Source of the DNA: a virus
Direction: 5' to 3' (one strand)
DNA length: 64,000 nucleotides
IMG/VR virus record: IMGVR_UViG_3300017963_000217
Location: 1-64,000 of that record
The notes beneath the pieces are model-generated. The model worked only from the letters and a program-made list of their open reading frames with translations, did no database searches and was not told where the DNA came from. A program made the position numbers and the translations under genes. The stretch's first letter is position 1; each line of letters opens with the position of its first letter. Positions 6,485-62,518 of the stretch are shown in pieces.

Positions 6485-6544
6485 ATGAAATTTTTTGTGC
6501 ATAATAGCGATGCCTTTTAGTTAAATTTATAACTAGGAGGTATC
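6485..6544 (+). promoter_or_regulatory. leader peptide MKFFVHNSDAF-amber (6485-6520) with hairpin sequestering the SD of ORF 6548
   Basis: own SD AAGGAGG; GATGCCTTTTAGTTA (6509-6523) pairs over 15 bp (incl. G-U) with TAACTAGGAGGTATC (6530-6544). Confidence 0.7.
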
Positions 6545-6547
6545 ATT

Positions 6548-7120
6548 ATGTATATCATAGAACCATATAAGGCAAAAATTCGTCTTATAAGTAATTTGAA
6601 TGGTCTTGTAGAGGTGTATCCTAACTACGAGTCCTTTCTTAATAATTTAACCTACGATTTCATAGATAAACGCATTGTAACCACTTTCAAAGATTGGCCG
6701 AATGTTAACTGGTGGTTATGGGGATTAAGGGAATCAAGATACGAACTTTTCGTTGTCCGTGACGAGTTCGGCAGTGTTTTTAGTCGCACAGAAATTTATA
6801 ACGACTTTAAAGAAATACGCGCTAAAAAACATACCTCTAAATGGATCGAATTTTGGAATCGCAGATATGATTTTGTATATAGATATACACCGGTTCCTCG
6901 TACAGGTAAAATAAGAAGTCATTTCGGTAATTATTATAAACGACCTAAAACTACGCAAGAGCGTAGATGGTCTTTTGCTCATGTGAAATACGTAAGAGGT
7001 AAAAGACGTTCTCATGTGCTACCCAATGTTTGGGATGACAAACAGAGAGGTGACATAGATAACAGAAAATGTTGGAAAAACAAAAAAATAAAAAAGCAGT
7101 GGATGAAAAATCTTGGTTAA
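6548..7120 (+). CDS. basic phage hypothetical protein (PKTTQERR / LPNVWDD / KKQW C-terminus)
   Basis: 190-aa ORF with strong SD and Arg/Lys/Trp-rich C-terminal region. Confidence 0.65.
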   Translation: MYIIEPYKAKIRLISNLNGLVEVYPNYESFLNNLTYDFIDKRIVTTFKDWPNVNWWLWGLRESRYELFVVRDEFGSVFSRTEIYNDFKEIRAKKHTSKWIEFWNRRYDFVYRYTPVPRTGKIRSHFGNYYKRPKTTQERRWSFAHVKYVRGKRRSHVLPNVWDDKQRGDIDNRKCWKNKKIKKQWMKNLG

Positions 7121-7238
7121 TTAAAGTTGAAATGAATTCTGAAGAATGCCCTGAAAGATTTAAGAAATGGAATCCTCCAAAAAATGGGTATTTCTGTAAA
7201 ATCAGTAATAAAAGATGTAGTAAAACAAATTGCAAAAA

Positions 7239-7312
7239 GCGGGCATAGCTCAGTGGTAGAGCATCTGGTTGCCATCCAGAATACGGGAGTTCGATTCTCC
7301 TTGTCCGCTCCA
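7239..7312 (+). tRNA. tRNA-Gly(GCC)
   Basis: cloverleaf GCGGGCA/TGTCCGC, anticodon loop TTGCCAT, TTCGA, encoded CCA. Confidence 0.95.
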
Positions 7313-7332
7313 AATAAATAAGGGGAGATACG

Positions 7333-7503
7333 ATGGATAGAAAAAAATTGTTAAGACGTAAAAAAGTATTAACAAATCAGATTCGTATTTTCAAGAAAAA
7401 GATTGTAGATTCAACATCGGAAAGCACAGAACAGATGCTACTTGAAAAGTTGGAGGATATAAGAGCAAGTTTATCTAAAATAGAAAAAAGACTGAGATCG
7501 TAA
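7333..7503 (+). CDS. small basic coiled-coil protein (56 aa, below ORF-track cutoff)
   Basis: SD GGGGAG, ATG7333..TAA7503. Confidence 0.55.
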   Translation: MDRKKLLRRKKVLTNQIRIFKKKIVDSTSESTEQMLLEKLEDIRASLSKIEKRLRS

Positions 7504-7658
7504 TGTTTGAGGACTTAATAAAAGAAAAGAAAAAACAAATAGAAGAACAAATGGATAGTAATGTATATTTATATTGCACAATGTGTGGATATACGATGAA
7601 AGCAATGGTAAATATTTGTCCAATTTGTGGCGCCGCCATGATAGGCGCACCTGAGTAA
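7503..7658 (+). CDS. small rubredoxin-like Zn-ribbon protein (51 aa)
   Basis: TAATG overlap; CTMCGY...CPICGA. Confidence 0.65.
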   Translation: MFEDLIKEKKKQIEEQMDSNVYLYCTMCGYTMKAMVNICPICGAAMIGAPE

Positions 7659-7669
7659 AAGGAGTAGAC

Positions 7670-7723
7670 ATGACATAGATTCATAAAATGGAATATGGGT
7701 AGGTTGCCAGAGGGCCTCCTTGA
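7670..7723 (+). promoter_or_regulatory. leader ORF with two in-frame amber codons ending RGPP-TGA (putative arrest peptide / attenuator)
   Basis: SD AAGGAG; ATG ACA TAG ATT CAT AAA ATG GAA TAT GGG TAG GTT GCC AGA GGG CCT CCT TGA; CTCCTTG complementary to downstream SD CAAGGAG. Confidence 0.7.
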
Positions 7724-7769
7724 ATATTGTCTTAAAAATAAAAATAAAAATTAACAAGGAGACAATATC

Positions 7770-8072
7770 ATGAGACCAAAAATGAAAGAACTTAAATACT
7801 GGCTTATTACCCATGCAACGGAAATCAGAGAAACAAGAAAATTACTAAAAGATGCTCAGAGGAATAGTAAAGCTACTTGGAGATTTCGAGGAGATATAAT
7901 TAGAATGGTTCCAGAGTATAGGCACCATCATATTGCATATTCTGAAATGAAAGGTAGATCTAGAGAACAAATAGAACGTCCCAGAGAAGACAACCTCCCC
8001 AATGAAAATTGGATTGAGGAAATCAAAAAGGAATACTGGGATGAACCAAAGACTTTATGTGTTAGTACGTAA
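7770..8072 (+). CDS. hypothetical protein (RHHHIAYSEMKGRSREQIE motif)
   Basis: 100-aa ORF with SD AAGGAG, overlapping the Pth2-like gene. Confidence 0.7.
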   Translation: MRPKMKELKYWLITHATEIRETRKLLKDAQRNSKATWRFRGDIIRMVPEYRHHHIAYSEMKGRSREQIERPREDNLPNENWIEEIKKEYWDEPKTLCVST

Positions 8073-8331
8073 AGATTTGCCCAAGTCCTATCAAGCTGTT
8101 CAGGCTGGTCATGCAGTAGCTGAATGGTTATTGTATGATCAGTCCTGGCAAAATGAAACACTTGTCTATCTGGGAGTGAATAACGAAAACGAATTATTGG
8201 ATTGGAAAGAGAGATTGGATTTTAATAATATAAAGCACGCGTCATTTAGAGAGCCTGATATAGGAGATCAACTGACTGCAATAGCTACTTTGTCCGACGG
8301 GAAAATTTTTAAAAAGTTGAAATTAATATAA
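8041..8331 (+). CDS. peptidyl-tRNA hydrolase 2 (Pth2)-like protein
   Basis: LYVLVRKDL...QAVQAGHA...LVYL...F.EPDIGDQLTAIA; the canonical GK lysine is not evident. Confidence 0.75.
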   Translation: MNQRLYVLVRKDLPKSYQAVQAGHAVAEWLLYDQSWQNETLVYLGVNNENELLDWKERLDFNNIKHASFREPDIGDQLTAIATLSDGKIFKKLKLI

Positions 8332-8406
8332 GCGCCTGTAGCATAGTGGCTAATGCAGCGGATTCTAAACCCGCTTACAAGGGTTCAATTCCCTTCGGGC
8401 GCTCCA
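8332..8406 (+). tRNA. amber suppressor tRNA (anticodon CUA), Gly-like acceptor stem
   Basis: GCGCCTG TA GCAT AGTGGCTA ATGC A GCGGA TTCTAAA CCCGC TTAC AAGGG TTCAATT CCCTT CGGGCGC T CCA; CTA at 8365-8367 centred in a 7-nt loop. Confidence 0.88.
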
Positions 8407-8439
8407 AGATTTGTAACAAAGTTTGAAAAAGTAAAATAA

Positions 8440-8516
8440 GCCGCTATAGCTCAGTAGGCCAGAGCGCGTCATTGGTAATGACGAGGTCTCCGGTTCAATT
8501 CCGGATAGCGGCTCCA
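8440..8516 (+). tRNA. tRNA-Thr(GGT)
   Basis: GCCGCTA/TAGCGGC acceptor, CGTCA-TTGGTAA-TGACG, CCA. Confidence 0.95.
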
Positions 8517-8547
8517 AATAAATATTTAAAAATAAAGGAGATTTAAA

Positions 8548-8796
8548 ATGGAAGATCAAGTAATGGAAAGCACAGTAGAAACCGAAGAGGTAGTAGAGGA
8601 AGTTAATGCTGAGGAAGAGGAAGCGAAACTAAGACAAGAGAGAATCTCAGCTTGTAATAGAGAAATTACATCTGTTTTAGAAAAGTATGGATGTACGCTA
8701 GATGCAGTTATTACTCTTAGAGCTGGACAGGTAATTCCTGGAATCAAGATTGTACCAATAGAGTTGATGCGGCAATCGCAACCACAACCTGTATAA
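8548..8796 (+). CDS. acidic hypothetical protein
   Basis: 82-aa ORF with SD AAGGAG. Confidence 0.6.
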   Translation: MEDQVMESTVETEEVVEEVNAEEEEAKLRQERISACNREITSVLEKYGCTLDAVITLRAGQVIPGIKIVPIELMRQSQPQPV

Positions 8797-8814
8797 TATC
8801 TTACTTACATTAAA

Positions 8815-8885
8815 GCGGGCATAGCATAGTGGTAATGCGGGAGGATTCCAACCTCTTGACCGGGGTTCGATTCCCCGTGTCCGCT
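8815..8885 (+). tRNA. tRNA-Gly(TCC), CCA not encoded (followed by CAA)
   Basis: GCGGGCA/TGTCCGC, GGAGG-ATTCCAA-CCTCT. Confidence 0.92.
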
Positions 8886-8909
8886 CAATAACCATAGGGG
8901 AGAGAGAAA

Positions 8910-10001
8910 ATGCCAGTAGTAACTTATAATCCGTTTACCAGGAATTATGATTTTATTGGTAGTACAAGTACATCAAGTGGGGTATCAGACCATGGATTAT
9001 TAAATGGTCTATTAGATGATGATCATCCGCAATATTTATTAACAGATGGATCTCGACAGCTATCAGCTGATTGGGATTTTGGTGCTTTTACTATATCTGG
9101 AACCGGAGATGTTCATTGTAATGATTTATATACGTCTGGAAGTGGTATCTATATAGGTGGATTGCATCTTACATATGATGGAAATGAATTTATTATACCA
9201 GATGATGTTTTTGTTGACAATAGTAATTTAATGGTCAACGGTGTGATTGGTACTGACACCAGTTTCTTTTTCCTTTCTTCATCAGGTATAATCGGTGTTT
9301 CGGGTATGCCAGATTTGTTAGAACTTAATCAAAACGAGATTATAATTAACGGTGATTTTATTTTCGACAGTAACACCATTTCTGGAACAGGCGACATACA
9401 CTGCAATGACTTATACACAGCTGGAAGTGGTATATATCTTGGTGGGCTACATTTAACTTATGATGGAAACGAACTTAATATTCCCGAAAATGTTTTCATA
9501 GACAAGGATGCATATTGTGAAAATTTATTTACTAACAACAATCTATTTGTTAGTGGTTCTATTGATACAAATAATATAGAATTTAATGGAACAATATCTG
9601 GTACTGGGGATATTTATTGTAACAACCTGTATACCAGCAGTGGTAGTCTGTATATAGGAGATTTACATCTATCATACAATGGATCACATCTAGTTATCCC
9701 CGAACAATTACAAGTTATGGGTGATATAGGTACTGGTAATAACCTGTATGTGGTTGGTGATGTTGTTTTTGGAACTTCATTTGGAACTATAGGTGTTCAG
9801 GGGATGGAAGATCTAATAGAAATTGACCAAGATAAGATGACGCTTAACGGCGATGTTGAAATAGGTGACATGAATGCATATTATCTTGGAGAGGCAACAG
9901 CAAGTGGAACTTGGCGAATAATAAGGGATGGAGAAGATCTAAAGTTCCAATGGTATGATGGTGGAAGTTGGAACGATGGTAATGTGACTGTCAATAGATA
10001 A
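8910..10001 (+). CDS. fibre-like virion protein with TISGTGD(I/V)xCNxLY repeats
   Basis: three internal repeats plus DHGLLNGLLDDDHPQY module shared with the fibre genes. Confidence 0.65.
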   Translation: MPVVTYNPFTRNYDFIGSTSTSSGVSDHGLLNGLLDDDHPQYLLTDGSRQLSADWDFGAFTISGTGDVHCNDLYTSGSGIYIGGLHLTYDGNEFIIPDDVFVDNSNLMVNGVIGTDTSFFFLSSSGIIGVSGMPDLLELNQNEIIINGDFIFDSNTISGTGDIHCNDLYTAGSGIYLGGLHLTYDGNELNIPENVFIDKDAYCENLFTNNNLFVSGSIDTNNIEFNGTISGTGDIYCNNLYTSSGSLYIGDLHLSYNGSHLVIPEQLQVMGDIGTGNNLYVVGDVVFGTSFGTIGVQGMEDLIEIDQDKMTLNGDVEIGDMNAYYLGEATASGTWRIIRDGEDLKFQWYDGGSWNDGNVTVNR

Positions 10002-10007
10002 AATTGA

Positions 10008-10083
10008 TGGGGGATAGTTCAGCGGAAGAACGTCCGGCTCTGACCCGGAAGACTCGAAGGTTCGAATCCTTCTCCCCCAGCCA
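10008..10083 (+). tRNA. tRNA-Gln(CTG)
   Basis: T1-A72 acceptor TGGGGGA/TCCCCCA, G73, loop CTCTGAC, CCA. Confidence 0.95.
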
Positions 10084-10101
10084 AAAATTTAGAGGTATAA
10101 A

Positions 10102-10449
10102 ATGTCTAAATGGATAACTATAATATTAACTGCTTTAGGTATGATAGTGGGCGGAATATTTTTTATAGAGGATAGATTCGAGAATGAATCTGATGCAGCG
10201 GAAACAAAATTAAAAGTAGCTGGTGTTGAAAGAGTTTCCCAAGAGCAAGTAGAAACATTACAATCTGTACAAAGATCTTTAGAATCTATGGAAAGAACTT
10301 TTGATCTGAGAGCATTAGAAAGTCTGCGTAACGAAAAATATCTAATGAGTAAACAACTACAGGAAGACCCTAATAACGAGTTATTAAAAGAAAGGATAGA
10401 GCGGTTAGAAGATAGGATCGAAAAGCTAGAGAACAAATTATATGATTAA
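10102..10449 (+). CDS. membrane-anchored coiled-coil protein (possible lysis accessory)
   Basis: N-terminal hydrophobic helix then heptad-rich region. Confidence 0.5.
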   Translation: MSKWITIILTALGMIVGGIFFIEDRFENESDAAETKLKVAGVERVSQEQVETLQSVQRSLESMERTFDLRALESLRNEKYLMSKQLQEDPNNELLKERIERLEDRIEKLENKLYD

Positions 10450-24891: not shown

Positions 24892-25116
24892 ATGTCTGAA
24901 GAAAGAGTTAGTGGAGAAGTGAAGTGGTTTAATGCTGAACGTGGATTCGGATTCATAACTATGGATGGTGACGAAACAAGTGAATATTTTGTACACTATA
25001 GTTACATCCAGATGGAAGGGTATAAAACTCTACGTGCCGGCCAGAAAGTCACATTCAAGTTAGTTCAGACTGATAAGGGTGTGCAAGCACAGGAAGTAAT
25101 TCCCGAAGAGGAGTAG
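24892..25116 (+). CDS. cold-shock domain protein
   Basis: GEVKWFNAERGFGFI, FVHYS, GYKTL..GQKV.F. Confidence 0.92.
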   Translation: MSEERVSGEVKWFNAERGFGFITMDGDETSEYFVHYSYIQMEGYKTLRAGQKVTFKLVQTDKGVQAQEVIPEEE

Positions 25117-29003: not shown

Positions 29004-29429
29004 ATGGTAAGCAAAAGAGGTCGTCCGATAGGACATAGGCTTAGTGAATCTACTAAAGAAAAAATTAGACAAAAAAGGTTGGGAACCAATCACACTAAAG
29101 AAACTAAAGATAAAATATCCAGATCACTAAGAGCCTATTTTAGGACCAAAGATCAGCTTGCAGAGAGTATTGAATATGAGTATAGTTATTTATCAGAGGA
29201 AGCGGCTGATTGGGTAGTCGAAAATAGAGACGCCATTAATGATACTGATAGTGTTATGACTGAGAAAAGATTATTCTATTTGAATCAGTTAGAGATATCT
29301 TTGGGTAGTGACATTGAAAATATGTTTGGGCATGGAGCTACTCCAGAATTTTTTATGATGTTAAAAGAACAAATGAAAGAACTTAAATGTGCTAAATCGG
29401 ACATGGACGAGTTATATTCATTGGTATAG
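29004..29429 (+). CDS. NUMOD3-repeat DNA-binding protein
   Basis: LSESTKEKI, HTKETKDKIS. Confidence 0.65.
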   Translation: MVSKRGRPIGHRLSESTKEKIRQKRLGTNHTKETKDKISRSLRAYFRTKDQLAESIEYEYSYLSEEAADWVVENRDAINDTDSVMTEKRLFYLNQLEISLGSDIENMFGHGATPEFFMMLKEQMKELKCAKSDMDELYSLV

Positions 29430-40650: not shown

Positions 40651-42864
40651 ATGGACAAAAAAGAAATGAGAGAACTGTTTAGGGCAACCGCTGCTATAAA
40701 TACTCCTGAAGGCATCATGGCCTATAAGGCGTTTGCTGCTGCTCTGACAACTCCAATCCTTCAAGCAATAGAGAGAGATTCCATAATGAGACAGCTTTTT
40801 GCTGTTGAAGAACTAGGTCCTGGAGCACAAGCTTCATATCCGGTCGCTGAGGATTTCGAGATCCCAGTTTGGGTATTACCAGGACTTGGCTATGTTGCCC
40901 AGAATTTTATAGAAGGTATCGGTGAAGAGGTTAACTGTATAGCCTCTTAATTTTGCTATATGCTGGAAAGCCCTAAAGGCTCTTTTACTGCTATCGTAAT
41001 AATAAGGAGTATGTAACAATGGGTAATCATGCAGGAAACTTTGATATTGCACATCTTAAATGGTTAGGTGGGTTGATAGATGCTGACGGTTCTATAGGTA
41101 TTTCTATAAATACTAGAAAAAACAATAAAATAGTTTATACACCGTGTATAGTAATAACCAACAGCAATGCCATAATGATAGAACGTGCACATAATATTCT
41201 TGATCAATACAAGATAAATCACCATATAAAGCCAAATGGTTCATGTAAAAACCTAACCATCTCTAGGCCAAATATAATAGATTTGTTTTGTAGACTAATG
41301 AACGGTTTAATTTTAGTAAAAAATAACGAGCTTAGACTTATACATCAATTTTGTTTAAAGCGAATAATTAATATAAATGAATCTGGATGTAATTGGAAAG
41401 CTAATTATAACAAAGACGAAATAGATATAGTCTACGAGTTAAGATCATTGAATATGAGACATTATGGTAAATGCGAGGAATATGGGATAGTAGACAATGA
41501 AGTAAGTGTAGATTTGTTGAACTGTTTTAGCCTAGAGTGGTTGGCTGGTTTTATAGACGGTGACGGTTGTTTTAGTATAAGTAAGATAAAAAGACCTTCA
41601 GGAAAATATCAATATCAACCTTTGACTAGTATAGTAACTGGATCATTGATTGCTAAAAATATTATTTCTATTTATTTAGATAGATATAATATTAACTATT
41701 ATTTAAATAAATCAGTATCTGGACCCAATCATAAACCTAACTGCATTAAAAAGAAATTTGAATATGTCATTAGATCTCAGAAAGATTGTATAAAAATTTA
41801 CAATTTACTATCAAATAAGGTTGTTGGAAAGAAGCATAGATTGAAGTTATTATTTAACTTTTGTTCTAGTAGATTGAATCGTAAAAACAAACCCTATTCT
41901 GATTTTGAGATATTTTTATATAAACAACTTAATGATGATATCAGAGGATCCTCAACGACTATATGCAAAACGTCGTATGACGAAGAGATAGTCTGAACTA
42001 TATGGAGACATATAGAGGAGGCGCCGAAGAGCCCTCCCGCCCGAAAAAAGTCGGGTCATAAAAGTAACAGATTGATACGTACCTACATTTTCCATCGATG
42101 CATCGGGCGACTGGAAACTCACTTATGCTAGGGATTCGAGAGTGGATATTGCGGCAAGAGCTGCAGAGAAAGCTGCTAAAGCGATTGCTGATTACGAAGA
42201 GGAAAGTGGATGGAGAGTAATTCTACCCGCCGCTACTTCAAGATTCTTTGGAAAGGGACTGCTTGGCTCACGCCCAGCTCCTATTTATGAGATTAACCCC
42301 GCATCTACTGGTGCTGGTTATCTTTCTAAAGAACTTCTCAACAAAATGATTGTTGGGTTCAAGAGAATTGGAAGAACTTTGACGGATCTGTATGTTTCAC
42401 CTGAAGATGCAGCTGACATCAGAGAATGGACCGACACAGATGTTGACCCAATGACGAGGCGTGAAATTTTCCAGGCTGCTGGAATGGGCAGTATTTGGAA
42501 TGTCACCCTTCATGAGGTACAGCATCTTGGTGCCACGGGTCTGTATAATATTAATGGTAGTACTTCAGCTTATGGTAAGTTTATTGCTGACGGTAGTGAG
42601 CAGTATAATGCATACCAGCTGGATAACCCAAATGTTACATCAGCTGATGGTACAGTTTCTACTTTGGGGGAAACTCAGGTGCTTGGTTTTGACCTTGGCG
42701 TCAATGACTCACTTGTTATGCCTATCCGTAAGACCTACGAAGCTCATGATGATCCAACCCTACTTAGGGTCCAGAAAGCTGGATTCTTTGGCTGGGAGGA
42801 AATAGGATTTGCATGTCTTGATCCTCGTATGCTGGGTATGGGTATAATCGACAGGTCGTTATAA
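40651..42864 (+). CDS. major capsid protein, spliced: exon1 40651-40931, exon2 42075-42864 (356 aa)
   Basis: joining GT|A restores ...EGIGEEVYVPTFSIDASGDWKLTYARDSRVDIAARA; strong hairpin downstream. Confidence 0.85.
40932..42074 (+). ncRNA. group I intron in major capsid gene
   Basis: P1 AAGAGGT/GCCTCTT with U-G splice pair; core TATGCTGGAAA, AATCATGCAGG, CTCAACGACTA, GATAGTCTGAAC; terminal G; IGS GTAT pairs 3' exon ATAC. Confidence 0.9.
41019..41996 (+). CDS. intron-encoded double-motif LAGLIDADG endonuclease
   Basis: WLGGLIDADGSI and WLAGFIDGDGCF. Confidence 0.92.
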   Translation: MGNHAGNFDIAHLKWLGGLIDADGSIGISINTRKNNKIVYTPCIVITNSNAIMIERAHNILDQYKINHHIKPNGSCKNLTISRPNIIDLFCRLMNGLILVKNNELRLIHQFCLKRIININESGCNWKANYNKDEIDIVYELRSLNMRHYGKCEEYGIVDNEVSVDLLNCFSLEWLAGFIDGDGCFSISKIKRPSGKYQYQPLTSIVTGSLIAKNIISIYLDRYNINYYLNKSVSGPNHKPNCIKKKFEYVIRSQKDCIKIYNLLSNKVVGKKHRLKLLFNFCSSRLNRKNKPYSDFEIFLYKQLNDDIRGSSTTICKTSYDEEIV

Positions 42865-55127: not shown

Positions 55128-55859
55128 ATGAGATTTATAGATATTAGCGGTAAAAAGTTTAATAGGTGGACTGTTCTTGAATATGCTGGATTTACCGATG
55201 GTCTGGATAAACGAAGATCTTGGAAATGTAGATGTGAGTGCGGCACAATTAGAGTAGTCGCTGGCACTAGTTTAAAACTAGGCAAAAGCAAAAGCTGTGG
55301 CTGTTTAGGCAGAGAAATATCTAGCAAAAACACTAATAATAGGATAGATATGTGTGGAAAAAGATTTGGTAGGTTGTTGGTTCTAAAATTTGCTGGCCAT
55401 GATAAATATAAGTCTGCTTTATGGGAAGTTAAATGCGATTGTGGTAATATAAAAATTTTAAATGGTAATTATTTGAGAAGAGGTCATACTACTAGTTGTG
55501 GATGTTATAATTTGGAACGATCTATAGAAGCTAATACAGGTAAGAATAATCACCAATGGAAAGGTGGCATTTCTTTGTCAGATCGCAAATCCGTTAAATA
55601 TACTAAATGGCGTAGAAAAGTTATTAAAAGAGATAAATATAAATGCCAAATGTGTAATAGAACCTTATATAAATCTTTACATGCTCATCATATTTTTCCC
55701 TTCGGAGATTATGAAAAACTTAGATTCAAAGTTTAGAATGGTATATCTCTTTGTAAAAAATGCCATGAAAGTATAAAAAATAGAGAACACTGCTTTATAG
55801 ATAAATTTATAGCTATAACAAATGGTTATAAATATCGGGAGGGAATAACATTGGGGTAA
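55128..55859 (+). mobile_element. HNH homing endonuclease with in-frame amber at 55734-55736 (243 aa if read through)
   Basis: ...HAHHIFP...LRFKV-TAG-NGISLCKKCH... to TAA55859. Confidence 0.8.
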
Positions 55860-56101
55860 GTACATGGGGTTGGGGAAGTGCGTGTGGTGGAATAATAACC
55901 TCGTGGGGCTGGGGCCAGTGCCCATGTGAAGACTTTATACCTTCGGCTTCTGTACAGGATATTTGCGGTACTCCTGTGAGAACGTGCGTAGAAGTTAGGA
56001 ATAGGCCATCTGATCTCGCATCTAGAGCCAGACCCTCTGAATTTGCGTCTAGAGCTAGACCGGCTGTTATACCTTCGCGCAGTAATATATGTGATGACTA
56101 A
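55850..56101 (+). CDS. unannotated 83-aa Trp/Gly/Cys-rich protein (ATT start or 1-nt G deletion)
   Basis: SD GGGAGGG; open frame GVSTWGWGSACGGIITSWGWGQCPC...RPSDLASRARPSEFASRARP. Confidence 0.5.
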   Translation: MGVSTWGWGSACGGIITSWGWGQCPCEDFIPSASVQDICGTPVRTCVEVRNRPSDLASRARPSEFASRARPAVIPSRSNICDD

Positions 56102-58105: not shown

Positions 58106-59713
58106 ATGGGAAAAAAATATACTATAGGATATATAGAGGAAAATTTTAATAAAGAAGGTTATAAATTATTAACTAGTGAATACAATGGGTGCAAACAAAA
58201 GCTAGATTTTATATGTCCTAATGGCCATAGACATAATATAAGTTTTGATAAATGGTTAAAAGGCCAAAGATGTTATTACTGTAATGGTAATGTGAGATTG
58301 AGTAACACAGAAGTAAAAAGAGAATTTGAAGAAAATGGATATATATTATTATCTCAATATAAAAACAGCGGCACTAAATTGAAATATAAATGCCCTCAAG
58401 GCCATATAGGTGAGATGAAGTGGGATCATTTTAGGGACGGTCATAGATGTCCAGAATGTTCGGGGAATAAACCTATTAGTAGAGAAAAGATATCCGCTAG
58501 ATTTAGCTCAATGGGTTATAAATTTTTAGATAAGATAAATAACAACGGTATTAGACGATTGTCTTATGTTTGCGATAAAGGTCATTATGGAGAAACCACA
58601 TGGTATAACTTTAACAAAGGTATAAGATGTAATGAATGCGCGGGCAAAGCAAAAAAGACGGTGGATTTTTTACGAAATGAATTTAACACAGAGGGATACG
58701 CACTTGTAACAGAAAATTATGAAAACTGTCACCAAAAATTACATTTAGTATGCCCTAATGGTCATAATTATTATGTATCATGGGATAATTGGAATAATAA
58801 AAACTCTCGTTGTACGAAATGTAGTGAATGGGGCAGATCTAATCAAGAAACTGAGTTATTCGAGTTTTTGAATGGTATATGTGACAAAATAATTAGAAAT
58901 GATAGATCATTAATAAGCCCTTATGAGATTGATTTTGTAATACCTGAAAAGAATGTTGCTATAGAATATTGCGGCTTATACTGGCATTCTGAATTAGCTG
59001 GTAGAAATAGGAATTATCATATAGATAAATTAGATAAATGTCAATCCAAGGGTTATAGACTTATAACTATTTTTGAGGATGAATTTGTAAATCGTAAAGA
59101 AATTGTTTTTTCAAGGCTCAAAACTATTCTTGGTTTAAATAGTAATAAGATATTTGCTAGAGATTGTTTAGTAAAAGAGATATCTACTAATGAGGCATCC
59201 GAGTTTTGTAATAAACATCATTTACAAGGATATCACGGTTCATCAATTAAAATAGGTGCTTTTTATAAAAATAAATTAGTATCAGTAATGACTTTTTCTA
59301 AACCATCTATAGCTAAAGGTAGTAAATATAAAGAAGATTTTATTTGGGAACTGTCTAGGTTTTGTTCCATCCAAGACTATATTATAATTGGTATAGCTTC
59401 AAAGTTATTAAAATTTTTTGAAAGAAATTACAAATGGAATGAGATATTTTCATATGCAGATAGAAGATGGTCTGATGGTAATTTATATATAAAAATGGGA
59501 TTTGAATATTCTAGTATTACTACTCCTAACTATTGGTATTTGAGTAAACAATCAAGAATTCATAGATTTGCTTTGCGTAAAACAAAAGAGGATCCTAAGG
59601 ATCAAACAGAATGGCAAATAAGAAAATATGATGGTTGGAATAGAATATGGGATTGTGGGAATTTGAAATATAAAAAAATTAATGCCTCATATTTAAGCAA
59701 CTATGTTGCTTAG
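58106..59713 (+). mobile_element. free-standing endonuclease with Zn-ribbon repeats and Vsr/EDxHD-like domain (Hef-like)
   Basis: CPNGH...C..C repeats; EIDFVIPE.NVAIEYCGLYWHS; LITIFEDE; SYADRRWS, IWDCG. Confidence 0.75.
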
Positions 59714-59827: not shown

Positions 59828-62518
59828 ATGGCAAGAAACAGGATCATTTATGGTTCTCAATCAGTATGGTGTAATGGTGAAATCCTATATAGAGTGCAGA
59901 CACTGGGCAGTACCACAACTTTTACGTCTGAGGACATATTTGAACTAGGTCATTTAGATATAGTAGACGTTGTGGACGACGTAAGATAGTTGCGTCCTTG
60001 TTGGGTAACCAACATGTAAAACTTCATGATATGCTGGAAACTCCCACTAAGTTTTTACTACTAACCGATATCGGAGTAATAATGTAAAAAATAGGGACAA
60101 TCAGCAGGGGAGATTTTATAATGAGAAAAAAAATGCCTTATAGTAAGGATGAATTACAAAAGTTGTATATGGAAGAGGGATCTATAGGTAAAGTAGCATC
60201 AAAATTATCTAAACCTTATAGTACTGTTAGATATTGGTATGAAAAAAATGATATCAAAGTACAACCTTCATGCATGACTATCTACCAAGAATTAAGAGAA
60301 ACCCCCATGTCACAATTTCAAAAATCTATAGTTTTGGGTTCGGTTCTTGGTGATGGGAATTTGAAATTAGCCCCCCATAGTAAAAATGCTAGACTAAGAA
60401 TTGGTCATTGTAAAAAGCAAATAGGTTATTTAAAATGGAAATACGATATGCTACAACCCTTTTCTAGAAAATTTGGTTTAGATCAGCCTGCCAAAGAAAA
60501 AATTTATAAAGGGAAAAAGTTTAAGTCGACTGATTTTTACAGATTTCATACGGTAGTTCATCCAGATATTACTTATTATTATAGAAAATATTATAATAAG
60601 GGTAACAAAATAGTTCACAGAGACGTTATAGATGAACTTGATTTAATATCACTTGCTATATGGTTTGGTGATGATGGATCTTCATACAGAGATAAAAGAA
60701 CTGATGCTGTTATGTGCTCATTTGCTACTAATTCATTTAGTTATAAGGAACAAGTAGTGCTAGTAAAGGCTTTAAGAAGGTTCTTTGGTGGTACCATAAA
60801 AATAGATGAGCAAGGTAATAAAGGCAGATCAGATTTACTTTTAAGAATGTATAAGACCGTTTATGTAAAAGACTTTTTGTACAATATTAAATCAATTTTA
60901 CCAAAATGTATTCATTATAAAATCGCCCTCAGAGACTAGGTATGAAGCTCCTATTTTATTATAGGATGAAGGTATAGTCCGAACTTACAGGAAACTGTAA
61001 GAGGGAATGCCGAAGAGCTTCCCCGCCTAACAGGTAAAGCTGAGGTCATTATAAGTAACAGATTGACCTGCTGTCGCAGTTACACTTAACACTAACGATT
61101 GGGGCGATGTAAAAACCATGGCCGTATTAGCACAAGTTCCAGCAGCTAAACTTGCAATGGACGCTAACGCTACTAATAGTAATGCTAACTTAGCTACTGT
61201 TGACTCAAGTCTTACAGAGTTGGGTTATTACCATCATGGTGCATGTTTAGCTGACTTTGCGGTTACTTGTGGTAACTTAACTGGTGTTACTTTATGGGCT
61301 CCAGTTCAGTCAGAATGTGATCTTGGTACACTAGCTAATAATATAGACCAGACTATGGTAATGGACGAAGTCTACGTAAATAGTCTTGAATTTGGCTATA
61401 CTACTGGTGCAAATGCTACTGAGAACTACGGTGCTGAGACTGACCAAAAGCTATGGTTGCTGAATGATGGTAGATTTGTTAACTACGAAGAACTAGATTA
61501 TGATAGTGGTGATTTTACCACTTCTGGTACTTTAGCTTCTGGTGTTACTATAGCCACATTTAGTGATGGAAGTTTGGGATTCTTAAGAACCGATGTTGAT
61601 GGCGCTAGGGCAGTTACCTATTTTGATGCAAGTGCGAACAATGGGCTTGGTGAACAAGTTAATTGGGCAGTTGTTTCTGGTACTGCTGCTGCTACTAGTA
61701 CATTTGTGTATGATGAATCTACTGATACCTTGTATCTACCTACTGTTGGTATAGCTCCAGCGGCCGGCGACAAGATATTTGCTGTATACTCAGCAGACGG
61801 TTATGTAACTGCTATGGGTAATAAATATTTTGAAATTCTAGATGTTACTGAGCGCCCAGATACTATTGGCGCTTTGAGACAGGGTCAGGTAGAGATTTAT
61901 ATTGTATCTGATACTGACGCATCATATGAGAATGCATGGAGATTGACTGCGGTTACTATTACTTCTGACCTTACGCGTGAAGCTTTGGCTGAACTTGGTC
62001 ATTTGGGTCCATATGATAGGCCGTTGACAGTTCCAATACCAATTACAGTTACCATAGACACCACTGCTGGTGACTTGGAACATTGGTCAAGATTTGCTGA
62101 TAGGTATTCCGAGTTTGCTAATGATACTATGATAGATATAGATCTAGCAGATTTATTCTCATCGGAAGATCTTAAGTTAGTGGTTAAGGTATTTGCTCAG
62201 ACCGACGAAGAAGCTGGTGGAACAGGTTCTAATAGAACTATTGCTGTCGGTTCAGATCTTATTGGTCAGGATTATTTTTGGTCAGATTCTGCGGCAAGTT
62301 CTGTAAAGGGAACCATTGCTGCTGGTCAAACTGAAAGAGCACTTAAGACTATCGTTGTTGAACATCTTAAGATTACGGATGAGGCTTACACATTGGATCT
62401 TGGAACAAACGCTACTCAGACATTTGGGTTTCGTTCAACCAATGATCTCTATGTTGTTAAGGGAGACCTTGATATAGATCATATTACTGGTGGTAATAAG
62501 ATTAGGCGTAATGCTTAA
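59828..62518 (+). CDS. major tail (tube-like) protein, spliced: exon1 59828-59982, exon2 61066-62518 (535 aa)
   Basis: SD AGGAGG; joining GT|A gives ...ELGHLDIVDVVDDVPAVAVTLNTNDWGDVKTMAVLAQ; hairpin downstream. Confidence 0.75.
59983..61065 (+). ncRNA. group I intron in major tail gene
   Basis: P1 GACGT/GCGTC with U-G; TATGCTGGAAA, CAATCAGCAGG, CTCAGAGACTA, TATAGTCCGAAC; ends AAGTAACAGATTG as intron 1 does. Confidence 0.9.
60121..60939 (+). CDS. intron-encoded LAGLIDADG endonuclease (LAGLIDADG_2-type) with N-terminal HTH
   Basis: VLGSVLGDGNL, LAIWFGDDGS, TNSFS. Confidence 0.88.
   Translation: MRKKMPYSKDELQKLYMEEGSIGKVASKLSKPYSTVRYWYEKNDIKVQPSCMTIYQELRETPMSQFQKSIVLGSVLGDGNLKLAPHSKNARLRIGHCKKQIGYLKWKYDMLQPFSRKFGLDQPAKEKIYKGKKFKSTDFYRFHTVVHPDITYYYRKYYNKGNKIVHRDVIDELDLISLAIWFGDDGSSYRDKRTDAVMCSFATNSFSYKEQVVLVKALRRFFGGTIKIDEQGNKGRSDLLLRMYKTVYVKDFLYNIKSILPKCIHYKIALRD

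What the first reader, a model, noticed from the sequence alone, without database searches (positions are those of the whole stretch)
8332..8406. Amber suppressor tRNA with glycine-type acceptor identity in a phage that is not globally recoded
Seen: canonical cloverleaf with anticodon CUA, G1-C72, C2-G71, G3-C70, U73, a 4-nt variable loop and a D arm (GCATAGTGG.TAATGC) nearly identical to the neighbouring tRNA-Gly(TCC), plus an A31-C39 mismatch. Known: those acceptor positions are bacterial GlyRS identity elements, whereas described TAG-recoded phages mostly decode TAG as Gln (G73 tRNAs). TAG is still an ordinary stop for many genes here (e.g. 25116, 29001, 29969, 48471, 54630) and long ORFs lack internal TAG. 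Inference: a weak or conditional regulatory suppressor, possibly inserting Gly, not a code change.
Basis: partly seen in the sequence, partly recalled or inferred. Interest (0 to 1): 0.8.

Follow-up and report, generated by a model that had tools for sequence, protein, structure and literature searches.

The report
Phage amber-suppressor tRNA in self-gated cassette
A normal-code phage carries a real tRNA that reads the UAG stop codon, and it ends a small conserved gene cassette whose own leader contains UAG codons, so the tRNA probably switches on its neighbour genes and does not rewrite the genetic code.

Summary
The tRNA at 8332-8406 is real: ARAGORN finds it, Rfam scores it 63 bits, its anticodon is CUA and CCA is encoded. 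The 99-kb record reads cleanly in the standard code, so there is no global TAG recoding.

The tRNA is the last part of a conserved four-part cassette:
- a 17-codon leader (7670-7723) with UAG at codons 3 and 11, ending in the arrest motif RGPP plus a stop;
- a hairpin that hides the next Shine-Dalgarno site;
- a 100-aa helical protein;
- a 96-aa Pth2-fold protein whose stop codon abuts tRNA base 1.

Of 73 IMG/VR loci that encode the Pth2-like protein, 60 have a tRNA(CUA) downstream on the same strand. About 40 loci, this window included, have the amber-plus-Pro-Pro leader, and 8 instead carry UAG at codon 3-5 of the hydrolase-like gene.

The likely role is a dedicated regulatory suppressor. 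Glycine identity is not established: C35/C36 are missing and the acceptor elements vary among cassette tRNAs.

One HNH endonuclease gene (TAG at 55734) also needs read-through to make an intact domain.

This scan had already noted the amber-gated Pth2/tRNA(CUA) pairing in at least 208 other genomes. I found no publication describing it. Nothing here is experimental.

The parts
8332..8406 (+). tRNA with anticodon CUA (amber suppressor type). It has U73, an encoded CCA, an A31/C39 mismatch and a 4-nt variable loop.
   Evidence: ARAGORN; Rfam RF00005 at 63.2 bits; structure string. Orthologous tRNA(CUA) lies downstream of the same gene in 60 of 73 loci.
8041..8331 (+). Pth2-fold protein gene of 96 aa. 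An in-frame upstream ATG at 8002 would give 109 aa. Its TAA stop (8329-8331) abuts tRNA base 1. In this phage it has no internal TAG.
   Evidence: Pfam PF01981 scores 21.5 bits, just under the cut-off of 23. 326 homologues. AF2 model pLDDT 94.4. All significant Foldseek hits are Pth2 structures or a Pth2-like protein of unknown function, with TM 0.76-0.81 for the best. The position of the Pth2 catalytic Lys aligns with Tyr. N-terminus checked.
7770..8072 (+). Conserved 100-aa protein built as a long helical hairpin, with the motif E-[YF]-R-H-x-H-I-A-Y-C-x-L-R-G-R-x-x-x-Q-I-E. It overlaps the start of the Pth2-like gene.
   Evidence: tblastn finds it directly upstream of the Pth2-like gene in 41 loci at E<=1e-3, and in 54 with the weaker matches. 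Alignment A3. AF2 pLDDT 92.8, all-helical. No significant fold or sequence match.
7659..7723 (+). Leader: SD AAGGAG (7659-7664), then ATG 7670, reading M-T-UAG-I-H-K-M-E-Y-G-UAG-V-A-R-G-P-P-UGA. The UAGs are at 7676-7678 and 7700-7702, and RGPP is at 7709-7720.
   Evidence: Sequence. The same leader type (M-x-UAG ... [RK]-x-P-P-stop) lies 300-500 nt upstream of the Pth2-like gene in about 40 of 74 loci. The Pro-Pro codons vary synonymously between loci. RGPP is an experimentally strong arrest motif (PMC12992588).
7724..7768 (+). Hairpin: 7724-7733 (AUAUUGUCUU) pairs with 7759-7768 (GAGACAAUAU). It covers part of the SD (AAGGAG, 7756-7761) and the spacer of the 7770 gene, and it starts 1 nt after the leader's stop.
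   Evidence: MFE fold. For the stretch after the Pro-Pro codons, z = -3.7. In 20 of 35 unique loci at least 3 of 4 SD bases pair with the 30 nt after the Pro-Pro codons, with different arm sequences; median z is -2.5.
55128..55862 (+). HNH endonuclease gene with an in-frame TAG (55734-55736) inside the HNH domain. It is a possible second target of the suppressor, or a fresh nonsense mutation.
   Evidence: Pfam HNH PF01844 scores 29.9 bits over residues 173-218 only when TAG is read; the 202-aa stop-terminated form has no hit. The closest intact homologues, P0122 and P0123, have Trp at that column.
7239..10083 (+). The surrounding tRNA cluster: Gly(GCC) 7239-7312, Thr(GGT) 8440-8516, Gly(TCC) 8815-8886 and Gln(CTG) 10008-10083.
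   Evidence: L003 shows the same order, Gly(GCC) / Pth2-like / tRNA(CUA) / Gly(TCC).

Best explanation
The tRNA is a genuine phage-encoded UAG-reading (amber suppressor) tRNA. It is the last element of a conserved cassette with this order: SD, amber-containing arrest leader, SD-hiding hairpin, 100-aa helical protein, Pth2-fold protein, tRNA(CUA).

Proposed mechanism (all steps inferred):
1. The tRNA is transcribed with, or next to, the cassette and cut out. Its 5' end abuts the stop codon of the Pth2-like gene. A host synthetase then charges it.
2. Without it, ribosomes on the leader stop at UAG, codon 3, and the hairpin keeps the next ribosome-binding site closed.
3. With it, ribosomes read both UAGs and reach R-G-P-P, a motif shown in experiments to arrest translation.
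4. The arrested ribosome sits just upstream of the 5' arm of the hairpin and melts it. This frees the ribosome-binding site, so the helical protein and the Pth2-fold protein are made.

On this reading the tRNA acts as a dedicated key, or as a sensor of the balance between suppression and RF1, and not as a code change. The residue it inserts is probably unimportant and is unknown. It may also rescue the TAG-interrupted HNH gene and add short tails to the 18 genes that end in TAG.
For: - The tRNA is real.
- The genome uses the standard code.
- Linkage: 60 of 73 IMG/VR loci with the Pth2-like gene have a tRNA(CUA) downstream on the same strand. It lies within 20 nt of the stop in 24 loci and directly abuts it in 5. 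It is the only tRNA in the 20-kb locus in about 16. All 64 suppressor tRNAs in these loci are CUA, which is the commonest anticodon there, 64 of 420.
- Leader: the M-x-UAG ... [RK]-x-P-P-stop type occurs in about 40 of 74 loci. Both UAGs are kept in the four closest relatives while the residues between them change. The Pro-Pro codons vary at third positions, which indicates selection on a peptide that can be made only by reading UAG.
- Hairpin: its arms differ in sequence between loci but keep pairing with the SD.
- RGPP is the strongest RAPP-like arrest motif (PMC12992588; mechanism in PMC10951233).
- A second architecture points the same way. Eight distant loci and the cultured phages Acinetobacter ME3 and Mycobacterium Cane17 put UAG at codon 2-5 of the Pth2-like gene itself.
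- The Pth2 fold is confirmed.
- The 99 kb encodes no release factor and none of the Gly-, Gln- or Glu-type synthetase families searched for, so host enzymes must charge the tRNA.
Against: - Nothing is experimental.
- In this phage the Pth2-like gene has no internal UAG, so gating rests on the leader and hairpin alone.
- By my strict measure only 2 of 4 SD bases are paired in the window's hairpin. The wider region folds only slightly better than shuffles, z = -1.4.
- A loop in which a tRNA only gates its own neighbours has no obvious benefit. The true output is unknown.
- 13 of 73 loci show no tRNA(CUA), and about 25 show no recognisable leader.
- The Pth2 catalytic Lys position is Tyr in this family, so hydrolase activity is uncertain.
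- TAG still ends 18 genes, so an efficient suppressor would extend those proteins. The median extension is only 6 codons.
- A later check of a similar claim on other DNA in this scan put the switch reading at only about 20/100.
Confidence: 0.55

Rival explanations
1. It is a general-purpose suppressor. The tRNA is made to read UAG stops across host and phage messages, for host shut-off, C-terminal extensions or rescue of nonsense alleles such as the HNH gene. The amber leader then only measures how much suppression is going on, and induces the Pth2-fold and helical proteins as damage control, for example by recycling peptidyl-tRNA from ribosomes that ran into 3' ends.
For: The HNH gene needs read-through for an intact domain. 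The cassette couples a hydrolase-fold protein to suppression. Phage genes prefer TAA, 81 of 105, and read-through of TAG stops adds a median of only 6 codons, so the cost to the phage is low. Suppressor tRNAs without known targets are reported in standard-code jumbo phages (PMC5852040).
Against: TAG-ending genes show no extra back-up stops compared with TAA-ending genes. The weak 31:39 closing pair and mismatch may argue for a poor suppressor, which is my inference from the literature on anticodon arms. The HNH TAG is one transition away from the Trp codon of its closest homologues and may simply be a recent nonsense mutation. The host is unknown.
Confidence: 0.2
2. One reading: host GlyRS charges the tRNA and glycine is inserted at UAG.
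For: G1-C72, C2-G71, G3-C70 and U73 are all present. L005's cassette tRNA has the same four elements. The nearest sense tRNA is the phage's own tRNA-Gly(TCC) at 72%, with a matching D arm apart from one extra loop base. From memory and not checked here, engineered E. coli tRNA-Gly amber suppressors do insert Gly, partly along with Gln.
Against: C35 and C36, which are GlyRS determinants, are replaced by U35 and A36. The closest orthologue L003 has U2-A71, and L004 has U1-A72 and A73. N73 and pairs 2:71 and 3:70 vary widely in the family. U35 favours mischarging by GlnRS or LysRS in E. coli (from memory). The host, and so its type of GlyRS, is unknown. The only homology-informative TAG site aligns with Trp or with variable residues.
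Confidence: 0.25
3. It is a relic or forerunner of TAG recoding, or the unseen part of the genome is TAG-recoded and this is its decoding tRNA.
For: CheckV estimates the record at 55% complete. Homologous Pth2-like genes sit near suppressor tRNAs in the Lak megaphages, which I recall as TAG-recoded (not tested here). Low GC (36%) and TAA preference resemble the relatives of recoded phages described in bioRxiv 10.1101/2021.08.26.457843.
Against: The 99 kb already holds replication, structural and tail genes, all intact in code 11, including a 7006-codon ORF. TAG is commoner than TGA as a stop, 18 against 6. No release factor or relevant synthetase was found. Most related 20-kb loci show no TAG-specific gain in ORF coverage (a crude test).
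Confidence: 0.07
4. The leader's ATG-ACA-TAG is a two-codon minigene and not a read-through site. It would make dipeptidyl-tRNA that drops off the ribosome, with the Pth2-fold protein as the matching hydrolase. The tRNA would then be incidental, or would act as a decoy or processing signal.
For: A strong SD followed by a 2-codon ORF is the layout of the toxic lambda bar-type minigenes, whose effect depends on peptidyl-tRNA hydrolase (my own knowledge; compare PMC2490762 and PMC8012679 listed). A hydrolase-fold gene lies downstream.
Against: The Pro-Pro-stop is conserved in frame after the UAG, with synonymous codon variation. Minimal leaders have no internal start codon after the UAG. The anticodon is CUA in 64 of 64 cases, matching the leader's stop codon. 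These points are hard to explain unless UAG is decoded.
Confidence: 0.08

Closest known systems
Phage-encoded suppressor tRNAs of stop-codon-recoded phages (TAG read as Gln, 'code 15'; crAss-like and Lak phages; Borges et al., bioRxiv 10.1101/2021.08.26.457843)
   Same: A phage-borne tRNA with a CUA anticodon that must be charged by host enzymes. Low GC and a preference for TAA stops. Pth2-like homologues also lie near suppressor tRNAs in Lak phages.
   Different: Here TAG is an ordinary stop and genes are intact in code 11. The only in-frame UAGs are in the tRNA's own cassette leader and in one HNH gene. That paper does not contain the word 'hydrolase'.
Orphan CUA suppressor tRNAs in standard-code jumbo phages (for example Xanthomonas phage XacN1, PMC5852040)
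   Same: A standard-code phage with a CUA tRNA and only a few amber stops. The authors found no target after reading 18 amber stops through in silico.
   Different: Here a candidate target lies in cis and is conserved across dozens of phages. In XacN1 the Pth2-like domain is fused into a 280-aa protein with no tRNA within 2.5 kb of it.
RAPP/RGPP arrest-peptide leaders (ApdA, ApdP; SecM RAGP) that open a downstream ribosome-binding site (PMC7897499, PMC10951233, PMC12992588)
   Same: A short upstream ORF ends in R-G-P-P, with a hairpin that hides the next SD immediately downstream.
   Different: Known examples monitor protein export or insertion and have long N-terminal sensor segments. Here the leader is 7-20 codons long, and the condition sensed appears to be decoding of an in-frame UAG by a cassette-encoded tRNA.
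prfB (RF2) autoregulation through an in-frame UGA
   Same: A stop codon placed early in a reading frame makes expression depend on the competition between termination and an alternative decoding event.
   Different: prfB uses a +1 frameshift and senses the level of its own product. Here a separate tRNA gene supplies the alternative decoding, and the regulated products are a Pth2-fold protein and a helical protein.
Archaeal/eukaryotic peptidyl-tRNA hydrolase Pth2 (PF01981; PDB 2zv3, 1xty, 1q7s)
   Same: Same fold, TM 0.76-0.81, and the shared motifs V-R-x-D-L and Q-x-G-H-A.
   Different: Shorter (96 aa), scores below the Pfam cut-off, and the position of the catalytic Lys is Tyr. Its substrate and activity are unknown.

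Membership tests
tRNA (Rfam RF00005) | Cloverleaf scoring above the family's gathering score, with the conserved tertiary nucleotides | tested here: met
   63.2 bits against 29. ARAGORN cloverleaf. U8, A14, G18G19, U33, A37 and T-loop UUCAAUU read from the sequence.
Amber suppressor tRNA | Anticodon 5'-CUA-3' in a 7-nt loop with U33 and a purine at 37 | tested here: met
   Loop UUCUAAA. A37 in 57 of 57 cassette tRNAs and A38 in 55 of 57.
Amber suppressor tRNA | Actually charged, and inserting an amino acid at UAG in vivo | not testable with these tools
   No expression or read data could be obtained. There is only comparative evidence for translation past UAG in the leader.
Bacterial tRNA-Gly identity set (GlyRS substrate) | U73 with G1-C72, C2-G71 and G3-C70 | tested here: met
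   Read from the sequence. Not conserved in the orthologues L003 (U2-A71) and L004 (U1-A72, A73).
Bacterial tRNA-Gly identity set (GlyRS substrate) | Anticodon nucleotides C35 and C36 | tested here: not met
   U35 and A36.
tRNA-Gln identity set (E. coli GlnRS; elements recalled from memory) | U35, G73, U1-A72, G2-C71, G3-C70, G10 | tested here: inconclusive
   U35, G3-C70 and G10 are present. G73, U1-A72 and G2-C71 are absent.
tRNA-Pyl (the ARAGORN label) | An atypical tRNA with a tiny D loop, 3-nt variable loop and 6-bp anticodon stem, lacking G18G19 and T-psi-C (from memory), together with pyl genes | tested here: not met
   Canonical 8-nt D loop with GG, canonical T loop and 5-position anticodon stem. 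The label reflects only the anticodon.
Stop-codon-recoded phage (code 15) | Low code-11 coding density that is restored by reading TAG, with many genes carrying in-frame TAG | tested here: not met
   92.8% against 94.6% coverage. No in-frame TAG in about 31.8k codons of called genes, apart from the HNH gene read past its stop. Only 99 kb is available, at an estimated 55% completeness.
Amber-gated Pth2-like / tRNA(CUA) cassette (recognised inside this scan, unpublished as far as I could find) | tRNA(CUA) adjacent to a Pth2-fold gene on the same strand | tested here: met
   Stop codon at 8329-8331 and tRNA from 8332. 60 of 73 related loci show the pairing.
Amber-gated Pth2-like / tRNA(CUA) cassette (recognised inside this scan, unpublished as far as I could find) | UAG within the first codons of the Pth2-like gene itself | tested here: not met
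   The window gene starts M-N-Q-R-L-Y-V with no TAG. The feature is present in L025, L053, L059, L060, L067, L072, L073, L075, ME3 and Cane17.
Amber-gated Pth2-like / tRNA(CUA) cassette (recognised inside this scan, unpublished as far as I could find) | An upstream leader with an early UAG | tested here: met
   Leader at 7670-7723 reading M-T-UAG...UAG...RGPP-stop. The same type occurs in about 40 loci.
RAPP-like arrest-peptide attenuator | A C-terminal R-[AG]-P-P core close to the stop of a small uORF, with a downstream gene on the same strand | tested here: met
   A-R-G-P-P-UGA at 7706-7723, and the next gene starts at 7770. The motif's activity is documented in PMC12992588.
RAPP-like arrest-peptide attenuator | Ribosome arrest demonstrated, and arrest-dependent opening of the downstream SD | not testable with these tools
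   Only a predicted hairpin and its recurrence with different arm sequences in other loci.
Pth2 peptidyl-tRNA hydrolase (PF01981) | Pfam score above the gathering threshold | tested here: not met
   21.5 bits against a cut-off of 23, E = 2.8e-4. Some homologues do carry PF01981.
Pth2 peptidyl-tRNA hydrolase (PF01981) | Pth2 fold | tested here: met
   The 14 hits with E<=0.001 are 13 chains of Pth2 entries (2zv3, 1wn2, 3erj, 1q7s, 1rlk, 1xty) plus Atu0240 (2gax), a protein of unknown function. TMq is mostly 0.72-0.81. Model pLDDT 94.4.
Pth2 peptidyl-tRNA hydrolase (PF01981) | Catalytic Lys and Asp (S. solfataricus K18 and D86, recalled from memory) | tested here: inconclusive
   In the HMM alignment with M. 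jannaschii Pth2 the Lys column holds Tyr. An invariant E-P-D is present near the expected Asp.

The most novel reading that the evidence does not exclude
The tRNA(CUA), the UAG-containing RGPP arrest leader and the SD-hiding hairpin form a natural, self-contained, orthogonal translational switch carried by many standard-code phages. A privately encoded suppressor tRNA is the only key that lets ribosomes reach an arrest motif and so turn on a Pth2-fold protein and a helical partner. The switch thereby senses the balance between suppression and RF1 termination, or tRNA charging, in the infected cell. This would explain the 'orphan' suppressor tRNAs of cultured standard-code phages (Acinetobacter ME3, Bixzunavirus mycobacteriophages, possibly XacN1). 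It could also be the seed from which full TAG recoding evolves.
Probability: 0.4. Interest if true: 0.85.

Novelty: new variant of a known kind. Interest (0 to 1): 0.7.

Why it matters
It has been unclear why phages that use the standard code carry suppressor tRNAs. The XacN1 authors looked for targets and found none (PMC5852040).

This locus offers a concrete, testable answer. The tRNA's target UAGs lie in its own cassette, in a leader that ends in one of the strongest known arrest motifs, in front of a peptidyl-tRNA-hydrolase-fold gene.

If the reading is right, it would be:
- a natural counterpart of the engineered amber-codon gene switches used in synthetic biology;
- a new input type (stop-codon decoding) for arrest-peptide attenuators;
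- a plausible stepping stone towards stop-codon reassignment in phages.

The layout also occurs in cultured phages (ME3 and Cane17), so it can be tested at the bench now.

Tried and rejected
Searches and tools that gave nothing:
- Close relatives: blastn of 7000-10200 and of the tRNA alone against 50,697 phage records gave only generic tRNA matches. The best hits for the suppressor were Vibrio-phage tRNA-His at about 76%, which is uninformative.
- An exact-pattern scan and a flanking-protein scan of IMG/VR found nothing.
I therefore have no read-level check of the anticodon and no expression data. Conservation of CUA in 60 related loci makes an assembly error very unlikely.
- PHROGs and Pfam gave little for most flanking or large genes.
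- The sigma-70 promoter and terminator scan gave no convincing signal around the cassette.
- The helical protein has no significant fold or sequence match. A weak resemblance to the seryl-tRNA synthetase N-terminal arm is too weak to use.

Readings considered and rejected:
- Read-through fusions at the two TAG junctions that are in frame with the next gene (25114-25116, CSD protein | 25120 ORF; 29427-29429 | 29433 ORF). Each downstream ORF has its own SD-like sequence and ATG 1 codon after the TAG. The Pfam domains do not span the junction. In-frame neighbours are no commoner after TAG (2 of 18) than after TAA (about 8 of 81).
- Extra back-up stops after TAG-ending genes: none.
- The tRNA-Pyl label: rejected on structure.

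A test too crude to decide:
- ORF-coverage comparison of the 73 related 20-kb loci for TAG recoding.
Full report
**1. The observation**

ARAGORN finds five tRNAs in the window, all on the + strand. They are Gly(GCC) 7239, CUA 8332-8406, Thr(GGT) 8440, Gly(TCC) 8815 and Gln(CTG) 10008. All five pass the Rfam tRNA gathering score, and the CUA tRNA scores 63.2 bits.

- G1-C72, C2-G71, G3-C70 and U73, with an encoded CCA.
- A 4-nt variable loop.
- A D arm that matches the neighbouring tRNA-Gly(TCC) apart from one loop base.
- An A31/C39 mismatch under the loop UUCUAAA.

ARAGORN's 'Pyl' label reflects only the anticodon. The molecule has a canonical D loop and T loop.

**2. The genome**

The window is the first 64 kb of a 99,386-bp virus record with 36% GC and all genes on one strand.
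- Standard-code ORFs of at least 100 aa cover 92.8% of the + strand. Reading TAG through adds under 2 points, no more than TGA or TAA do.
- A 7006-codon ORF is open in code 11.
- Of 105 called genes, 81 end in TAA, 18 in TAG and 6 in TGA.
- TAG occurs 2237 times out of frame within genes and never in frame in about 31.8k codons.

TAG is therefore a stop here. No RF-1 domain, class-II synthetase core, Glu/Gln-type synthetase or GlyQ is encoded in the 99 kb. The caveat is that the record is 'linear' with an estimated completeness of 55%.

**3. What sits around the tRNA**

The gene that ends with TAA at 8329-8331, touching tRNA base 1, is a weak Pfam PTH2 match (21.5 bits against a cut-off of 23). 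A first-reader note on this window had suggested this. The gene has 326 metagenomic homologues.

An AlphaFold model built on 29 of them has pLDDT 94.4. In the PDB its significant matches are Pth2 peptidyl-tRNA hydrolases (MJ0051, PH1539, AF2095, Bit1, the S. solfataricus enzyme) and one Pth2-like protein of unknown function (2gax). TM scores for the best are 0.76-0.81. In the profile alignment the column of the Pth2 catalytic lysine holds Tyr, so I call the protein Pth2-fold and not a proven hydrolase.

**4. The linkage**

A profile scan of IMG/VR returned 73 loci encoding this protein. They come from contigs of 6 to 470 kb.
- In 60 of them ARAGORN finds a tRNA(CUA) downstream on the same strand.
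- It directly abuts the stop codon in 5 loci, lies within 20 nt in 24, and within 700 nt in 51.
- In about 16 loci it is the only tRNA in 20 kb.
- CUA is by far the commonest anticodon in these loci, 64 of 420, and no UUA or UCA suppressor occurs.

The nearest locus, L003 (68% protein identity), has the same order: Gly(GCC), Pth2-like gene, tRNA(CUA), Gly(TCC).

Cultured phages carry the pair too. Acinetobacter phage ME3 has a tRNA 'anticodon CTA' 450 nt upstream of ME3_195. Mycobacterium phage Cane17 has gene 148, annotated 'peptidyl tRNA hydrolase', 250 nt before a tRNA(CUA). Lak megaphages have a tRNA(UUA) nearby.

**5. The cassette has two more conserved parts**

*The helical protein.* The 100-aa ORF at 7770-8072 overlaps the start of the Pth2-like gene. 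tblastn finds it in the same position in 41 loci at E<=1e-3, and in 54 counting weaker matches (alignment A3). It is predicted with confidence to be a long helical hairpin. It has no significant structural or sequence relative.

*The leader.* A leader precedes the helical-protein gene. After a strong SD (AAGGAG, 7659-7664), ATG 7670 reads M-T-UAG-I-H-K-M-E-Y-G-UAG-V-A-R-G-P-P-UGA.
- The same kind of leader lies 300-500 nt upstream of the Pth2-like gene in about 40 of 74 loci. It starts M-x-UAG, often followed by Val or Ile, and ends in [RK]-x-P-P and usually a stop.
- It ranges from minimal forms such as M-K-UAG-V-L-K-P-P to two-amber forms like the one here.
- In the four closest genomes both UAGs are kept while the residues between them differ.
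- The Pro-Pro codons differ at third positions between loci (CCU, CCA, CCG, CCC). This points to selection on the peptide and not on an anti-SD sequence.
- Minimal leaders have no start codon after the UAG, so the Pro-Pro can be made only by decoding UAG.

*The hairpin.* Directly after the leader a hairpin pairs with the SD region of the next gene. In the window, 7724-7733 pairs with 7759-7768. In 20 of 35 distinct loci at least 3 of 4 SD bases pair with the 30 nt after Pro-Pro. The arm sequences differ between loci, and the median z-score is -2.5.

RGPP, the motif in this window, is reported as the strongest of the RAPP-like arrest motifs and is not relieved by EF-P (PMC12992588; structural mechanism in PMC10951233).

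**6. A second architecture**

The window's Pth2-like gene has no internal TAG. Eight more distant loci, together with ME3 (M-T-UAG-I-H...) and Cane17 (M-UAG-V-T...), place a UAG at codon 2-5 of the Pth2-like gene itself and lack the separate leader. Either way the cassette carries the stop codon that its own tRNA reads.

This agrees with what follow-up agents of this scan reported for other genomes. The word search returned 326 notes in at least 208 genomes. I reached the gene-tRNA linkage independently. I took the leader lead from note e1-5999001 and then tested it here.

**7. Features of the tRNA family**

Among 57 distinct cassette tRNAs:
- N73 is A 25, U 16, G 13 and C 3.
- Pair 2:71 is C-G in 28, G-C in 15 and U-A in 8.
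- None has a long variable arm.
- A37 and A38 are nearly invariant.
- The closing 31:39 pair is weak (U-A or A-U), or mismatched in 15 of 57. Only 3 of 347 other tRNAs in the same loci are mismatched there.

The acceptor identity elements are not conserved. Together with the unconstrained positions of the UAGs, this suggests that decoding matters and the inserted residue does not.

For this particular tRNA, Gly remains possible. It has Gly-like acceptor elements, and its nearest sense tRNA is the phage's own Gly(TCC) at 72%. C35 and C36 are missing, however, and the closest orthologues differ at 2:71, 1:72 or 73. I put Gly at about one in four.

**8. Other UAGs in this genome**

A systematic look found only one further candidate. 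The HNH endonuclease gene at 55128 stops at TAG 55734-55736 in the middle of its HNH domain.
- Read through, it matches Pfam HNH end to end at 29.9 bits. Stopped, it has no match.
- The two closest intact homologues (62% and 59% identity) have Trp at that column (TGG, one transition from TAG). More distant homologues vary there.

This is either a recent nonsense mutation masked by the suppressor or a second gated gene. I cannot tell which.

The two TAG junctions that are in frame with the next gene look like ordinary adjacent genes. Read-through of ordinary TAG stops would add a median of 6 codons, the same as for TAA stops.

**9. Reading**

The best-supported explanation is that this is a dedicated regulatory amber suppressor.

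It is encoded at the 3' end of a cassette whose translation it unlocks. The steps would be: the UAGs are decoded, the ribosome arrests at RGPP, the hairpin melts, and the helical and Pth2-fold proteins are made. What these two proteins then do is open. They could recycle peptidyl-tRNA, limit the suppressor, or counter a host defence.

Rival readings are a general suppressor with the leader as its sensor, a leftover or forerunner of recoding, and a minigene. They are scored in their own sections.

No step has experimental support. An earlier internal check priced the 'switch' reading of the same design at only about 20/100. I rate it higher here because of the synonymous variation in the Pro-Pro codons downstream of the UAG and the recurring hairpin.

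**10. Literature**

Full-text searches found no description of a suppressor tRNA linked to a Pth2-like gene or to an amber-gated arrest leader. The XacN1 paper reports CUA tRNAs with no identifiable target. The Borges et al. preprint on recoded phages does not mention a hydrolase.

Noticed in passing
window 55128-55862: An HNH endonuclease gene is interrupted by one in-frame TAG (55734-55736) inside the HNH motif. The 40 codons after it still encode the N...C-x-x-C-H half of the motif. The closest intact homologues have Trp at that position.
   Followed up: yes
window 6485-6547: A second short ORF (M-K-F-F-V-H-N-S-D-A-F-UAG, then L-N-L-UAA) follows a strong SD. A 15-bp hairpin (6509-6523 with 6530-6544) buries the SD of the 6548 gene. 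The terminator scan also picks this hairpin up. It is the subject of note e1-5999003.
   Followed up: partly
G000 64770-85790 (beyond the window): A single 7006-codon ORF with no stop of any kind. Other first-reader notes describe it as a tape-measure-like protein with RNA polymerase and nuclease domains. I used it only as evidence for the standard code.
   Followed up: no
window 41019-41996, 58106-59713, 60121-60939, 29004-29429: There are several homing-endonuclease-like genes (HNH, LAGLIDADG). Three of these four end in TAG, so TAG stops look over-represented in mobile genes compared with core genes.
   Followed up: partly
L078 (Xanthomonas phage XacN1, ORF364) and L083 (Xoo-sp13_327): In these jumbo phages the Pth2-like domain is the C-terminal part of a protein of about 280 aa. 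It lies a few genes after a gene annotated 'glutamyl-tRNA amidotransferase', and no tRNA lies within 2.5 kb.
   Followed up: no
L081, L082 (Prevotella phages Lak-B4, Lak-A1): The Pth2-like homologue has a tRNA with anticodon UUA (ochre/amber-reading) 600-700 nt upstream on the same strand. I saw no early stop codon in the gene.
   Followed up: partly
L009, L017, L021, L046, L048, L055 (leaders upstream of the Pth2-like gene): Some leaders share a motif S-G-F-[TV] immediately before a UAG, for example ...SGFT-UAG-IRGPP. This is a second conserved element of unknown meaning.
   Followed up: no
window 8002-8040: An in-frame upstream extension of the Pth2-like gene (M-K-I-G-L-R-K-S-K-R-N-T-G) is conserved in L003 (M-K-I-E-L-K-R-S-K-R-S-T-P). 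The true start may therefore be 8002, or the conservation may belong to the overlapping C-terminus of the 7770 gene.
   Followed up: no
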